Positions 7,165 to 10,918 of a stretch of 64,000 bases of DNA are shown here, piece by piece (position 1 is the stretch's first letter; every line of letters starts with the position of its first letter). Under the pieces are notes generated by a model. It worked only from the letters and a program-made list of their open reading frames with translations. It did not search any database and was not told the DNA's origin. The stretch lies in NCBI RefSeq assembly GCF_050920415.1, contig NZ_CP169309.1; one strand, given 5' to 3'. Source of the DNA: Escherichia coli (GTDB taxonomy: Bacteria > Pseudomonadota > Gammaproteobacteria > Enterobacterales > Enterobacteriaceae). The translations under genes and the position numbers were made by a program.

Positions 7165-8037
7165 ATGACAGTATTCAACAAATTTGTTAGAAGTTTTAAA
7201 TCTCATTGGTTGTTGTATCTTTGTGTTATTGTTTTTGGTATTACGAACTTAGTCGCCTCTTCCGGAGCGCATATGGTTCAGCGATTGCTGTTCTTCGTTC
7301 TGACCATCCTGGTTGTTAAACGTATATCATCCCTTCCGCTTCGCCTGCTTGTTGCCGCATCATTTGTGTTACTGACAGCGGCAGACATGAGTATTAGCCT
7401 CTATTCATGGTGTACCTTTGGTACAACTTTCAATGATGGATTTGCGATTAGTGTGCTGCAGAGTGATCCGGATGAAGTTGTCAAAATGCTGGGGATGTAT
7501 ATCCCTTATCTATGTGCTTTTGCCTTTTTATCCCTTCTTTTTTTGGCAGTAATAATAAAATATGATGTTTCCTTGCCGACGAAAAAAGTGACAGGAATAT
7601 TATTGCTGATTGTCATTTCGGGCAGTTTATTTTCCGCTTGTCAATTTGCTTATAAAGATGCAAAAAATAAAAAAGCGTTCAGTCCATATATACTAGCGTC
7701 GCGATTTGCTACCTATACACCGTTTTTCAATCTCAATTATTTTGCTTTAGCAGCGAAAGAGCATCAAAGATTACTCTCAATTGCAAACACGGTGCCGAAT
7801 TTTCAATTATCAGTCAGGGATACAGGTATTGATACCTACGTGTTGATTGTGGGGGAGTCTGTACGTGTCGACAATATGTCTTTGTATGGATATACACGCT
7901 CTACGACACCGCAAGTCGAAGCACAAAGAAAACAGATCAAACTGTTTAATCAAGCAATAAGCGGTGCACCTTACACTGCGCTGTCGGTTCCCCTTTCTTT
8001 AACTGCTGATTCTGTTTTGAGTCATGACATTCATAAT
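7165..8037 (+). pseudogene. yhbX: yhbX 5' fragment (EptA/sulfatase-family phosphoethanolamine-transferase-like inner membrane protein), interrupted by IS insertion
   Basis: N-terminal membrane domain ORF (MTVFNKFVRSFKSHWLLYL...) that runs straight into the IS left end and stops 4 codons inside it. Confidence 0.85.
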
Positions 8038-8138
8038 TGTCAGCGCCAATGATATAAGACAGTAATTCACCATTTGGATTGTCCGCTCCACCCAACATGT
8101 TGTTTCCTTAAGGTTCCTACACCACAAAGGGAACACTC

Positions 8139-9310
8139 ATGCTGAGCAGAGAGGACTTTTACATGATAAAGCAAATGCGCCAGCAAGGTGCGTATATTGT
8201 TGATATTGCCACTCAGGTTGGTTGCTCTGAGCGGACTGTCAGACGGTACCTGAAATACCCGGAACCTCCGGCCAGAAAAACACGCCACAAAATGGCCAAA
8301 CTCAAGCCGTTCATGGACTATATCGACATGCGTCTGGCTGAGAATGTCTGGAACGGCGAGGTCATCCTGGCGGAAATCAAAGCGATGGGTTATACCGGTG
8401 GCCGTTCCATGTTGCGTTACTACATCCAGCCCAAACGTAAGATGCGGCCATCGAAGAAAACGGTTCGCTTCGAAACTCAGCCCGGTTACCAGCTACAGCA
8501 TGACTGGGGAGAAGTTGAGGCTGAGGTTGCCGGGCAACGATGCAGGGTTAACTTCGCGGTTAATACGCTGGGGTTCTCACGTCGCTTCCATGTCTTCGCG
8601 GCACCAAAGCAGGATGCTGAACATACCTATGAGTCACTGGTCCGCGCCTTTCGCTACTTCGGCGGCAGCGTGAAAACCGTGCTGGTCGATAACCAGAAAG
8701 CCGCAGTGCTGAAAAATAACAACGGGAAGGTGGTGTTCAACTCCGGGTTCCTGCTGCTGGCCAATCACTATGGCTTCCTGCCACGGGCCTGCCGTCCACG
8801 AAGGGCCAGAACCAAAGGTAAGGTGGAACGGATGGTGAAATACCTCAAGGAAAACTTCTTCGTCCGGTACCGCCGGTTCGACAGCTTCGCCCATGTTAAT
8901 CAGCTACTGGAGCAGTGGATGGCTGACGTTGCCGACAGGCGGGAACTTCGCCAGTTCAGGCAGACACCGGAACAGCGCTTCACGCAGGAACAGGTGCATC
9001 TGCAGGCGCTGCCAGGTACGGACTTCGATACCAGCTACTTCGATATCCGTCATGTCTCCTGGGATGGCTATATCGAGGTTGGCGGGAACCGTTACAGCGT
9101 GCCGGAAAGCCTGTGTGGCCAGCCGGTATCAATACGGATCTCGCTGGATGATGAACTGCGATTTACAGTAATGAGCAACAGGTAGCATTGCACCGTCTCT
9201 GTTCGGCTGTATACGGCTGGCAGACCGTGCCGGAGCATCACGCCCCACTCTGGCAGCAGGTCAGTCAGGTGGAACACAGGCCGTTGAGTGCCTATGAGGA
9301 GCTGTTGTGA
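8139..9310 (+). pseudogene. istA: IS21-family transposase IstA, apparently frameshifted
   Basis: 348-aa ORF 8139-9185 (MLSREDFYMIKQMRQQGAYIVDIATQVGCSERTVRRYLK..., HTH then DDE region); a second frame is open from about 9155 to a TGA at 9308-9310 overlapping the istB start. Confidence 0.7.
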
Positions 9311-10104
9311 TGCATGAACTGGAGACACTGCTGGGTCGTCTTAAAATGGAACATCTGGGCTACCACGTTGAAAGCCTGCTGGAGCAGGCGGCCAAAAAAG
9401 AACTGAACTACCGCGAGTTCCTGTGCATGGCGTTGCAGCAGGAATGGAACGGGAGGCATCAGCGCAGTATGGAGTCCCGGCTGAAACAGGCCCGCTTCCC
9501 GTGGGTCAAAACGCTGGAGCAGTTCGACTTCGGCTTCCAGCCAGGTATCGATCGTAAGGTCGTCCGTGAGCTGGCCGGGCTGGCGTTCGTGGAGCGTAGC
9601 GAGAACGTGATCCTGCTGGGTCCGCCTGGTGTGGGTAAAACGCACCTGGCAGTCGCTCTCGGGGTAAAAGCGGCGGACGCTGGTCATCGGGTGCTGTTCA
9701 TGCCACTGGATAAGCTGATCGCCACACTCATGAAGGCAAAACAGGAAAACCGGCTGGAAAAACAGCTACAGCAGCTTGGTTATGCCCGGGTACTGATACT
9801 GGATGAGATAGGCTATCTGCCGATGACCCGCGAGGAAGCCAGTCTGTTCTTCCGGTTGCTGAACCGTCGATATGAAAAAGCGAGCATCGTGCTGACGTCA
9901 AATAAAGGGTTCGCCGACTGGGGAGAGATGTTCGGCGATAACGTGCTGGCAACGGCAATCCTGGATCGACTGCTACACCACTCAACCACACTGAACATCA
10001 AAGGAGAAAGCTACCGGTTAAAGGAAAAACGCAAAGCGGGAGTGCTGGCAAAAAACGCCACGCCAATCAGTGATGATGAAATGGCGGCAAGCGGACAACA
10101 TTAA
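9307..10104 (+). CDS. istB: IS21-family helper ATPase IstB
   Basis: 265-aa ORF with Walker [18 protein letters not shown] and Walker [10 protein letters not shown]. Confidence 0.9.
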
Positions 10105-10161
10105 TGACCAATAGCGGACATTAAAAATGGCGAAAAACGGCCAATAATCTTGGCGTTGACA

Positions 10162-10918
10162 TAATTACCCGGACAACATTATTAATATGGCTAATCAAGC
10201 AGGATTTCAGACTTTCTGGCTAAGCTCGCAATCCGCTTTTCGGCAGAATGGTACAGCAGTTACCAGTATCGCCATGCGCGCCATGGAAACAGTCTATGTC
10301 AGAGGATTTGATGAATTGTTGTTGCCGCATTTATCGCAAGCGTTACAGCAAAAGACGCAGCAAAAGAAACTGATTGTTCTTCATTTAAATGGAAGCCATG
10401 AACCGGCTTGTAGCGCCTATCCGCAATCCAGCGCCGTGTTTCAACCACAGGACGATCAGGATGCCTGCTATGACAACTCCATTCATTACACAGATAGTTT
10501 GCTAGGTCAGGTTTTTGAATTATTAAAAGATCGCCGAGCCTCGGTCATGTATTTTGCCGACCATGGCCTGGAACGCGACCCGACGAAGAAGAACATTTAT
10601 TTTCATGGAGGCAGGGAGGCCAGCCAGCAGGCATATCATGTTCCGATGTTTATCTGGTATAGCCCCGTTCTTGGGGATGGCGTGGATCGCACAACGGAAA
10701 ACGATATCTTTTCCACTGCTTACAATAATTACCTTATTAATGCGTGGATGGGGGTAACAAAGCCGGAACAGCCGCAAACGCTGGAGGAAGTGATTGCACA
10801 CTATAAAGGAGATTCACGGGTTGTAGATGCAAACCATGATGTTTTCGATTTTGTGATGCTAAGAAAGGAGTTTACTGAGGATAAGCAAGGTAACCCCACC
10901 CCTGAAGGGCAGGGTTGA
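10162..10918 (+). pseudogene. yhbX: yhbX 3' fragment (sulfatase-like catalytic domain)
   Basis: Continues the 5' fragment in frame once the IS and one TAAT copy are removed (...SHDIHN/YPDNIINMANQAGFQTFWLSS...). Confidence 0.85.

What the first reader, a model, noticed from the sequence alone, without database searches (positions are those of the whole stretch)
7165..10918. IS21-family element inserted in yhbX with target-site duplication; host gene can be rebuilt in frame
Between 8038 and 10161 a 2.1-kb element carries an istA-like transposase gene and an istB-like helper ATPase gene (Walker A GPPGVGKT). Its ends are imperfect inverted repeats (left TGTCAGCGCCAA..., right end reverse complement TGTCAACGCCAA..., each with an internal TGTCCGCT), and it is flanked by a TAAT direct repeat (8034-8037 and 10162-10165; the same junction can also be read as a 6-bp ATAATT repeat if the ends are set one base inward). 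Removing the element plus one repeat copy joins ORF 7132-8052 to ORF 10187-10918 in frame (...SVLSHDIHN / YPDNIINMANQAGF...), giving one EptA/sulfatase-family membrane protein of about 541 aa. yhbX is therefore insertionally inactivated in this genome, which makes the strain a natural yhbX null.
Basis: partly seen in the sequence, partly recalled or inferred. Interest (0 to 1): 0.5.

Follow-up and report, generated by a model that had tools for sequence, protein, structure and literature searches.

The report
ISEc62 insertion sequence disrupting yhbX
A known 2.1-kb E. coli jumping gene (ISEc62, IS21 family) has landed inside yhbX, a non-essential envelope-enzyme gene of unknown role, and split it in two; this is an ordinary strain-specific knockout, and the inserted copy itself appears to carry a broken transposase gene.

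Summary
Window 8038-10161 is a 2,124-bp IS21-family element. It is 98-99.8% identical to copies that RefSeq labels "ISEc62 family". It is flanked by a 4-bp TAAT duplication at 8034-8037 and 10162-10165.

Removing the element and one TAAT copy gives a 1,626-nt yhbX identical at every base to the intact gene of E. coli MFDS1022581. That genome is otherwise collinear with the whole window, with 3 SNPs in 61.9 kb. Five independent copies share the TGTCAG...GTTGACA tips and have 4-bp duplications, which excludes the 6-bp reading.

The insertion follows codon 291 of 541, inside the catalytic sulfatase-type domain. It separates the Glu/Thr half of the active site from the Asp/His half, so yhbX is inactivated. 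yhbX converges on argG, so there is no polar effect.

The product is 348 aa instead of 390 and loses the end of the beta-barrel that contacts IstB, so the copy is probably non-autonomous.

None of 5,426 complete E. coli genomes has the insertion, but three draft assemblies carry identical junctions. This is ordinary, known biology of low interest.

The parts
7165..8037 (+). yhbX 5' fragment: codons 1-291. It holds five hydrophobic (predicted transmembrane) segments and the first part of the sulfatase-type domain, including the Glu231 and Thr271 equivalents of NmEptA Glu240 and Thr280. As it stands the ORF runs on into the IS and ends at 8052 with four foreign residues (CQRQ).
   Evidence: (identical to codons 1-291 of WP_074394112.1).
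8034..8037 (.). Left copy of the 4-bp target-site duplication TAAT.
   Evidence: the empty site in MFDS1022581 reads CATTCATAAT|TACCCGG with a single TAAT.
8038..10161 (+). ISEc62-type IS21-family insertion sequence, 2,124 bp (intact copies are 2,125 bp), in the same orientation as yhbX.
   Evidence: It is 99.8% identical to copies in MFDS1022581 and plasmid pla1 of Escherichia sp. 10290, and 98.3% identical to many annotated ISEc62-family copies.
8038..8087 (+). Left end with terminal repeat L1 (TGTCAGCGCCAA, 8038-8049) and subterminal repeat L2 (TGTCCGCT, 8080-8087). TATAAG at 8053-8058 is a possible -10 for a junction promoter.
   Evidence: inverted pair I2: 8066-8087 with 10113-10134. The promoter role is an inference from published IS21 biology.
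8139..9310 (+). istA, frameshifted. A G is deleted after 9159, so the ORF ends at 9185 (348 aa, the last 7 foreign). The remaining 3' part (9188-9310) is in another frame. Adding the G back restores a 390-aa IstA. Predicted DDE triad D122/D184/E230. Private substitutions G8763A (D209N) and C9189T.
   Evidence: (NF033546 280.7 bits, cut-off 160).
9310..10104 (+). istB, intact, 264 aa: AAA+ helper ATPase with Walker A GPPGVGKT. Its start overlaps the restored istA stop by 1 nt.
   Evidence: differs by one residue from the pDEC15A-1 IstB; no nucleotide differences from the pla1 copy in istB; NF038214 297.4 bits, cut-off 200.
10090..10161 (-). Right end with terminal repeat R1 (TGTCAACGCCAA, read on the - strand, 10150-10161) and two subterminal TGTCCGCT repeats (10113-10120 and 10090-10097). 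The outward-facing TTGACA at 10156-10161 forms the very tip.
10162..10165 (.). Right copy of the 4-bp target-site duplication TAAT.
10166..10918 (+). yhbX 3' fragment: codons 292-541 plus the stop. It holds the rest of the sulfatase-type domain, including the Asp423/His424 equivalents of NmEptA Asp452/His453. The longest ORF left starts at ATG 10187 (243 aa) and has no membrane anchor.

Best explanation
A copy of the IS21-family insertion sequence ISEc62 transposed into the chromosomal gene yhbX of an E. coli strain that is nearly identical, over this 64 kb, to strain MFDS1022581.

Integration followed the usual IstA (DDE transposase) plus IstB (AAA+ target-capture ATPase) route. A staggered 4-bp cut at TAAT was repaired into the flanking duplication. 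The site lies in an AT-rich stretch.

The element sits after codon 291 of 541, in the periplasmic sulfatase-type catalytic domain. The membrane anchor and the Glu/Thr half of the active site are left on one ORF, and the Asp/His half on another that has no anchor. The strain is therefore a yhbX null. Because yhbX is monocistronic and converges on argG, nothing else is affected.

The inserted copy carries a 1-bp deletion that truncates IstA within the C-terminal beta-barrel, the part that docks onto IstB. It is probably unable to move on its own, but it keeps both ends and an intact istB, so full-length IstA from other ISEc62 copies in the cell could mobilise it.

Shown: the element's identity, its ends, the duplication, exact reconstruction of the gene, the position in the domain, and the frameshift in the sequence as given. 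Inferred: loss of YhbX activity, loss of IstA activity, and trans-mobilisation.
For: **Identity of the element**
- It is 98.3-99.8% identical over its full length to copies RefSeq annotates as 'IS21-like element ISEc62 family transposase' and 'helper ATPase IstB'.
- NCBIfam IS21 transposase scores 280.7 bits against a cut-off of 160. IstB scores 297.4 bits against 200.

**Ends and duplication**
- Homology among five copies begins exactly at TGTCAG and ends at GTTGACA.
- The flanking 4-bp repeats are TAAT, GCTG, AGCA, CGAC and GCTG.

**Empty site and context**
- The rebuilt yhbX is 1626/1626 identical to intact yhbX in NZ_CP169399.1, which has a single TAAT.
- The whole window is collinear with that genome: 3 mismatches and no gaps apart from the 2,128 extra bases.
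- The 800-bp empty-site sequence is present and continuous in 5,120 of 5,426 complete E. coli genomes.

**The insertion is real and not a misassembly**
- Contigs from GCA_000194575.2, GCA_037967425.1 and GCA_002965625.1 are 100% identical across the left or right junction.

**Disruption of the enzyme**
- The Pfam Sulfatase domain spans residues 224-466.
- Alignment to NmEptA (5fgn) puts E231 and T271 upstream of the insertion and D423/H424 downstream.
- Five hydrophobic segments lie at residues 16-162.

**Defect in the IS**
- One G is missing after 9159 relative to four other copies. Adding it back restores a 390-aa IstA.
- The truncation removes Y343, which aligns without gaps to Tyr343 of IS5376 IstA.
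- The Y343A/R345A mutant of that protein had much reduced IstB ATPase stimulation and DNA integration (PMC11208146).
Against: - Loss of YhbX function is inferred from domain architecture only. No assay or phenotype exists, and the substrate of YhbX is unknown (searches found no functional study).
- The istA frameshift and the two private substitutions all lie in the part of the IS (8763-9189) that none of the other assemblies' contigs cover. They could not be confirmed independently and could be consensus errors in a repeated element. The truncated 348-aa IstA is not on record anywhere in the gene-position index.
- Whether a truncation after residue 341 abolishes activity has not been tested for ISEc62. 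The published truncation was 1-287.
- The rest of the genome is not available here. Other ISEc62 copies, or a second yhbX copy, cannot be checked directly.
Confidence: 0.93

Rival explanations
1. The element is a fully autonomous ISEc62 copy, and the 1-bp deletion in istA (with the two private substitutions) is a sequencing or assembly error in a multicopy repeat.
For: All three private changes fall between 8763 and 9189, a stretch that no other assembly covers. Draft contigs break inside the IS, which shows it is a repeat that assemblers struggle with. No other copy in 5,426 complete genomes shares the deletion, and the truncated protein is not on record.
Against: The other 61.9 kb of the window has no indels at all relative to MFDS1022581, so the assembly is not indel-prone. 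The deletion is in a GG dinucleotide, not a long homopolymer. Frameshifted istA or istB copies are common in finished genomes; for example, the MFDS1022581 copy has a frameshifted istB.
Confidence: 0.25
2. The true target duplication is 6 bp (ATAATT) and the element ends one base further in at each side (GTCAG...TTGAC).
For: The sequence ATAATT does occur at both 8033-8038 and 10161-10166. The empty site alone cannot distinguish the two readings.
Against: In four other copies, inserted in unrelated DNA, the terminal T and A are conserved while the adjacent flank bases differ. Each of those copies has exactly a 4-bp repeat: GCTG, AGCA, CGAC, GCTG. The extra matching bases here are a coincidence of the AT-rich target.
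Confidence: 0.02
3. The insertion is an assembly chimera, and yhbX is intact in the real genome.
For: IS elements are frequent sites of misjoins. No complete RefSeq E. coli genome has this insertion, and there was no metagenome hit to the left junction.
Against: There is a perfect 4-bp duplication and a precise in-frame reconstruction. Contigs from three separately accessioned draft assemblies are 100% identical across the left junction (5,422 bp) or the right junction (3,852 and 2,609 bp).
Confidence: 0.02
4. yhbX was already a pseudogene, or the split gene still yields a working enzyme, so the insertion has no functional consequence.
For: yhbX has no known phenotype. About 5% of complete genomes gave no match to the mid-gene segment. 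Another sample shows frameshifts in the gene. Loss therefore seems tolerated.
Against: Apart from the IS, the gene is base-for-base identical to an intact annotated allele. The two fragments separate residues that form one metal centre in the solved homologues, and the 3' fragment lacks any membrane or export segment.
Confidence: 0.03

Closest known systems
ISEc62 (IS21 family), as annotated by RefSeq/PGAP in E. coli chromosomes and plasmids, e.g. E24377A, pDEC15A-1, MFDS1022581, and plasmid pla1 of Escherichia sp. 10290
   Same: Same length (2,124 against 2,125 bp), same termini, the same istA-istB layout with a 1-nt stop/start overlap, 4-bp target duplications, and 98.3-99.8% nucleotide identity.
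   Different: This copy lacks one G in istA, which causes a frameshift after codon 341. It also has two private substitutions (D209N, and S to L at codon 351 of the restored frame). Its location in yhbX is not seen in any complete genome in the collection.
IS5376 of Geobacillus stearothermophilus (structural model for IS21-family IstA/IstB; PDB 8b4h, 8q4d)
   Same: IstA aligns end to end (E = 1.8e-82) with the same HTH-HTH-DDE-beta-barrel-tail organisation. Tyr343 is conserved. Both have multiple terminal repeats for a tetrameric transpososome.
   Different: It is a distant homologue from a Gram-positive host. In the window copy the beta-barrel is cut after residue 341.
IS21 of plasmid R68.45 and IS100 of Yersinia/E. 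coli (classic IS21-family members)
   Same: Two-gene istAB operon, TG...CA tips, subterminal repeats, short target duplications, and an outward -35 at the right tip that can pair with a -10 in the left end when the ends abut. The last point is recalled from the IS21 literature; the hexamers are visible at 10156-10161 and 8053-8058.
   Different: These are different IS species. Many weaker hits (80-90% identity, including copies labelled IS100 family) are other family members. The junction promoter was not tested for ISEc62.
EptA / EptB / EptC(CptA) / MCR phosphoethanolamine transferases (the family of the disrupted host gene)
   Same: YhbX has five N-terminal hydrophobic segments followed by a sulfatase-type domain. 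It aligns to EptC (5zzu, 5.5e-24) and NmEptA (5fgn, 7.5e-22), with the Glu/Thr/Asp/His metal-centre residues conserved.
   Different: YhbX scores far below the curated cut-off of every named transferase model (best 156 bits against 500). It has no assigned substrate. It is a paralogue of unknown specificity.

Membership tests
IS21 family insertion sequence | istA gene encoding a DDE transposase with an N-terminal HTH | tested here: met
   NCBIfam NF033546 scores 280.7 bits (cut-off 160). Pfam finds HTH, rve 113-222 and Mu-transpos_C_2 291-357 on the restored protein. It aligns to the solved IS5376 IstA at 1.8e-82. The gene is frameshifted in this copy.
IS21 family insertion sequence | istB gene immediately downstream encoding an AAA+ helper ATPase | tested here: met
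   NF038214 scores 297.4 bits (cut-off 200). Walker A GPPGVGKT is present. The istB start overlaps the istA stop by 1 nt.
IS21 family insertion sequence | Imperfect terminal inverted repeats with TG...CA tips and additional subterminal repeats (multiple IstA binding sites) | tested here: met
   The first 12 nt of the two ends match at 11 positions. TGTCCGCT occurs once near the left end and twice near the right. The ends were verified against four other copies.
IS21 family insertion sequence | Short direct target duplication (4-8 bp) created on insertion | tested here: met
   The 4-bp TAAT is confirmed against an empty site. The four other copies also have 4 bp.
IS21 family insertion sequence | Ability to transpose (functional IstA plus IstB) | not testable with these tools
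   The sequence predicts a truncated IstA that lacks the IstB-contacting end of the beta-barrel. A transposition assay is needed.
ISEc62 (named IS species) | Near-identity (ISfinder convention: isoform above roughly 95% nt identity) to the ISfinder reference entry | not testable with these tools
   ISfinder is not available here. Indirectly, copies 98.3-99.8% identical carry the RefSeq label 'ISEc62 family'.
Phosphoethanolamine transferase (EptA/MCR) family, for the host gene yhbX | N-terminal multi-helix membrane domain plus a periplasmic sulfatase-fold domain with a conserved Thr nucleophile and Glu/Asp/His metal ligands | tested here: met
   Pfam Sulfatase at 224-466. Five hydrophobic segments. 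E231/T271/D423/H424 align to NmEptA E240/T280/D452/H453 (the residue roles are taken from the published NmEptA work, recalled from memory).
Phosphoethanolamine transferase (EptA/MCR) family, for the host gene yhbX | Score above the curated cut-off of a named equivalog (EptA, EptB, CptA, MCR-n) | tested here: not met
   The best score is 156.4 bits against a cut-off of 500. All named models score below their cut-offs. YhbX is a family paralogue, not one of the characterised enzymes.

The most novel reading that the evidence does not exclude
The copy in yhbX was already istA-defective when it inserted and was mobilised in trans by other ISEc62 copies; that would be a natural case of non-autonomous IS21-family mobilisation. 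Alternatively, loss of yhbX was selected in this clone. In that case these isolates, paired with their near-isogenic yhbX+ relative MFDS1022581, would be a ready-made natural comparison for finding the unknown substrate of YhbX.
Probability: 0.12. Interest if true: 0.25.

Novelty: already known. Interest (0 to 1): 0.08.

Why it matters
It matters little beyond strain annotation. yhbX should be annotated as an IS-interrupted pseudogene, and the IS as an ISEc62 copy with a frameshifted istA.

There are two minor practical uses. The junction is a clone-specific marker, shared by at least three draft assemblies and absent from 5,426 complete genomes. The strain is also a natural null of an uncharacterised phosphoethanolamine-transferase paralogue and has a near-isogenic yhbX+ relative (MFDS1022581), which could help anyone searching for YhbX's substrate.

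Tried and rejected
- **Metagenome scan.** An exact 26-nt left-junction scan of metagenome contigs found nothing.
- **Truncated IstA look-up.** An exact-sequence look-up of the 348-aa truncated IstA found nothing on record, so the frameshift could not be confirmed independently.
- **Search for the same deletion.** A 76-nt query around the frameshift against complete E. coli genomes gave a best hit of 97.4%. No copy shares the deletion.
- **yhbX literature.** The 20 papers that mention yhbX use it only as a neutral locus or linkage marker, or mention it in passing. None gives a function. Two papers mention ISEc62 only as a plasmid remnant.
- **Promoter and terminator scan of 7000-11000.** No convincing outward promoter from the IS into the 3' yhbX fragment. 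The terminal TTGACA has no acceptable -10 at 16-18 nt in the flank. There is only a weak hybrid site at 8024-8053.
- **Composite or larger element.** Rejected. There is no further IS end in the window above chance, and exactly 2,128 extra bases separate the window from the reference genome.
- **6-bp duplication reading.** Rejected.
- **Logan contig L011.** It first looked like a fourth carrier of the insertion, but it has the empty site with two 1-bp insertions in yhbX instead.
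Full report
**1. Observation**

- A block from 8038 to 10161 (2,124 bp) begins TGTCAGCGCCAA and ends TTGGCGTTGACA. The first 12 nt of the two ends match at 11 positions as inverted repeats.
- TGTCCGCT recurs subterminally at 8080-8087 on the + strand, and at 10090-10097 and 10113-10120 on the - strand.
- TAAT flanks the block at 8034-8037 and 10162-10165.
- Inside are a 348-aa istA-like ORF (8139-9185) and a 264/265-aa istB-like ORF (9310 or 9307 to 10104) with the Walker A motif GPPGVGKT.
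- Joining 7165-8037 to 10166-10918 gives 1,626 nt, in frame, encoding a 541-aa protein that reads ...SHDIHN/YPDNIINMANQAGF....

**2. Identity of the element**

Megablast against 5,426 complete E. coli genomes found the element, or relatives of it, in 2,516 genomes. In 708 of them a single match covers at least 80% of the element.
- The best hits are 98.3-99.8% identical over the whole length. RefSeq annotates them as 'IS21-like element ISEc62 family transposase' plus 'IS21-like element helper ATPase IstB'.
- A 99.8% identical intact copy also lies on an IncFIA/FIB plasmid of Escherichia sp. 10290.
- NCBIfam places the two products above the curated cut-offs for the IS21 transposase (280.7 against 160 bits) and IstB (297.4 against 200 bits).
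- ISfinder itself could not be consulted, so the name ISEc62 rests on annotation transfer.

**3. Ends and duplication**

I aligned the window copy with copies from pDEC15A-1, E24377A, MFDS1022581 and pla1, all inserted in unrelated DNA.
- Homology starts exactly at the T of TGTCAG and stops exactly at the final A of GTTGACA.
- Each copy is bracketed by its own 4-bp direct repeat: GCTG, AGCA, CGAC and GCTG, and TAAT here.
The apparent 6-bp ATAATT is a coincidence of the AT-rich target (68% A+T in the 60 bp around the site).

**4. Empty site and genomic context**

An 800-bp reconstruction of the uninterrupted site matched 5,175 of 5,426 genomes. It was continuous in 5,120, and 100.0% identical in strains MFDS1022581 and N96, where it lies in an annotated intact yhbX.
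- The rebuilt gene is identical at all 1,626 positions to yhbX of MFDS1022581 (WP_074394112.1). The empty site there reads CATTCATAAT|TACCCGG, with one TAAT.
- The whole window (greA-ftsH-glmM-secG-leuU-yhbX-argG-nusA-infB-pnp ... aga ... gar-rnpB-tdc) is collinear with that chromosome. There are three mismatches (window 12313, 24455, 32716) and no gaps other than the 2,128 inserted bases.
- On this background the insertion is therefore the only structural difference, and it is evolutionarily recent.

**5. Is it real, and is it unique?**

- No complete E. coli genome in the collection carries the insertion. A junction-spanning query never reached 80% coverage.
- The left junction was absent from the metagenome collection.
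- Exact look-up of the two truncated YhbX products, however, found NCBI draft assemblies whose contigs are 100% identical to the window across a junction:
  - GCA_000194575.2 matches window 3165-8586 (left junction plus 549 bp of the IS).
  - GCA_037967425.1 matches 10067-13918.
  - GCA_002965625.1 matches 10085-12693.
- These contigs stop inside the IS. That is the usual signature of a multicopy repeat in short-read assemblies, and it suggests other ISEc62 copies exist in those genomes.
- A misassembly is thus excluded, and the allele exists in more than one public record.

**6. Consequence for yhbX**

YhbX has five hydrophobic segments between residues 16 and 162 and a Pfam Sulfatase domain at 224-466.
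- It aligns to the solved phosphoethanolamine transferases EptC (5zzu, 5.5e-24) and NmEptA (5fgn, 7.5e-22).
- In the NmEptA alignment, YhbX E231 and T271 pair with E240 and the Thr280 nucleophile, and D423/H424 pair with D452/H453 (the roles of these residues are from the published NmEptA work, recalled from memory).
- The IS lies after codon 291, so it separates the two halves of one metal centre.
- The 5' ORF ends four codons into the IS. The 3' ORF (from ATG 10187) has no membrane or export segment. Loss of function is therefore a strong inference, though untested.
- yhbX is followed by the convergent argG (10926-12269, - strand), so no polar effect is expected.
- YhbX scores well below the curated cut-offs of EptA, EptB, CptA and all MCR models.
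- None of the 20 papers that mention the gene gives it a function. It is used as a neutral insertion or linkage locus. Its loss seems tolerated: 251 complete genomes gave no match to the mid-gene segment.

**7.

Intact copies are 2,125 bp with a 390-aa IstA. The window copy lacks one G after 9159 (CTGC-GATT against CTGCGGATT), which shifts the frame after Arg341 and ends the protein at 348 aa. Re-inserting the G restores the full 390-aa reading frame, which ends at 9310 and overlaps the istB start by one base.
- Two further changes are private to this copy: G8763A (Asp209Asn, outside the predicted D122/D184/E230 triad) and C9189T.
- The restored IstA aligns without gaps through this region to IS5376 IstA (8b4h, 1.8e-82), so that Tyr343 is conserved.
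- In that system the beta-barrel (residues 300-355) docks into IstB. A Y343A/R345A mutant, like a 1-287 truncation, showed much reduced IstB ATPase stimulation and DNA integration (PMC11208146; PMC10122671).
- The window's IstA loses Tyr343 and everything after it. The copy is therefore probably non-autonomous, although both ends and istB are intact, so IstA from another copy could act on it.

Caveat. All three private changes lie in the stretch that no other assembly covers. No other copy shares the deletion, and the truncated protein is not on record. A consensus error cannot be excluded. Against that, the other 61.9 kb of the window has no indel relative to its closest relative, and the deletion is not in a homopolymer run.

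**8. Mechanism**

The anatomy fits the established IS21-family pathway. An IstA tetramer binds the repeated terminal sites (L1/L2 and R1/R2/R3 here). IstB oligomers capture and bend target DNA and activate IstA. Strand transfer with a 4-bp stagger then yields the duplication.

The right tip is an outward-facing TTGACA (10156-10161), and TATAAG lies 15 nt inside the left tip (8053-8058). Abutted ends with a 2-3 bp spacer would form a sigma-70 promoter for istAB, as described for IS21. That point is recalled from the literature and was not tested here.

A pattern scan found no credible promoter reading out of the IS into the 3' part of yhbX.

**9. Comparison, novelty and verdict**

This is a known insertion sequence, inserted in the standard way, in a dispensable gene of unknown function.
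- Every defining feature of the IS21 family that can be tested in silico is met. The exception is transposition competence, which the sequence argues against for this copy.
- Nothing here would surprise a specialist.
- Interest is low, about 0.08. Novelty: already known.

Noticed in passing
window 33820-33994: Two tandem 91-bp REP/BIME-type units (91% alike), in the region corresponding to the yraQ-dolP intergenic space of MFDS1022581. One overlaps an Rfam naRNA4 (REP-derived) hit at 33870-33941. The same array is present in MFDS1022581. It is an ordinary E. coli intergenic repeat.
   Followed up: partly
L011 (Logan SRR35550335_2478), equivalent to window 7500-8038 + 10160-11264: This contig has the empty ISEc62 site but two 1-bp insertions in yhbX (after window-equivalent positions 7524 and 7989). 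They split the gene into 169-aa and 243-aa calls. It may be an independent yhbX pseudogene or an assembly error.
   Followed up: partly
L001 4001-6124 (NZ_CP169399.1 142533-144656): The closest chromosomal relative of the window's IS (99.8%) sits in a HlyD-family gene next to yibI in MFDS1022581. It has the opposite defect: an intact istA but an istB frameshifted by a 1-bp deletion in an A-run. Decayed ISEc62 copies seem common.
   Followed up: partly
window 12313, 24455, 32716: These are the only three base differences between the 61.9 kb of non-IS window sequence and E. coli MFDS1022581. The source strain is therefore a very close relative of that South Korean food isolate.
   Followed up: no
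window 7165-10918 (yhbX) versus the whole window: yhbX is AT-rich (42.7% G+C) compared with the window (50.7%), the IS (54.1%) and the neighbouring argG (53.0%). In addition, 251 of 5,426 complete genomes gave no megablast match to its middle 800 bp. This suggests a dispensable, possibly horizontally acquired gene.
   Followed up: no
window 8024-8053: A weak hybrid sigma-70-like site spans the left junction: ATGACA in yhbX, an 18-nt spacer, then AATGAT in the IS end. It could give some read-in transcription toward istA. It is a pattern match only, 9 of 12 positions.
   Followed up: no
window 6622-6705, 12617-12690, 12782-12882, 17581-17651, 19163-19277, 19506-19677, 57321-57697: The expected RNA features of this E. 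coli region are all present and intact: tRNA-Leu, tRNA-Met, the rimP leader, a second naRNA4 (REP-derived) hit at 17581-17651, the S15 leader, SraG and RNase P RNA.
   Followed up: yes
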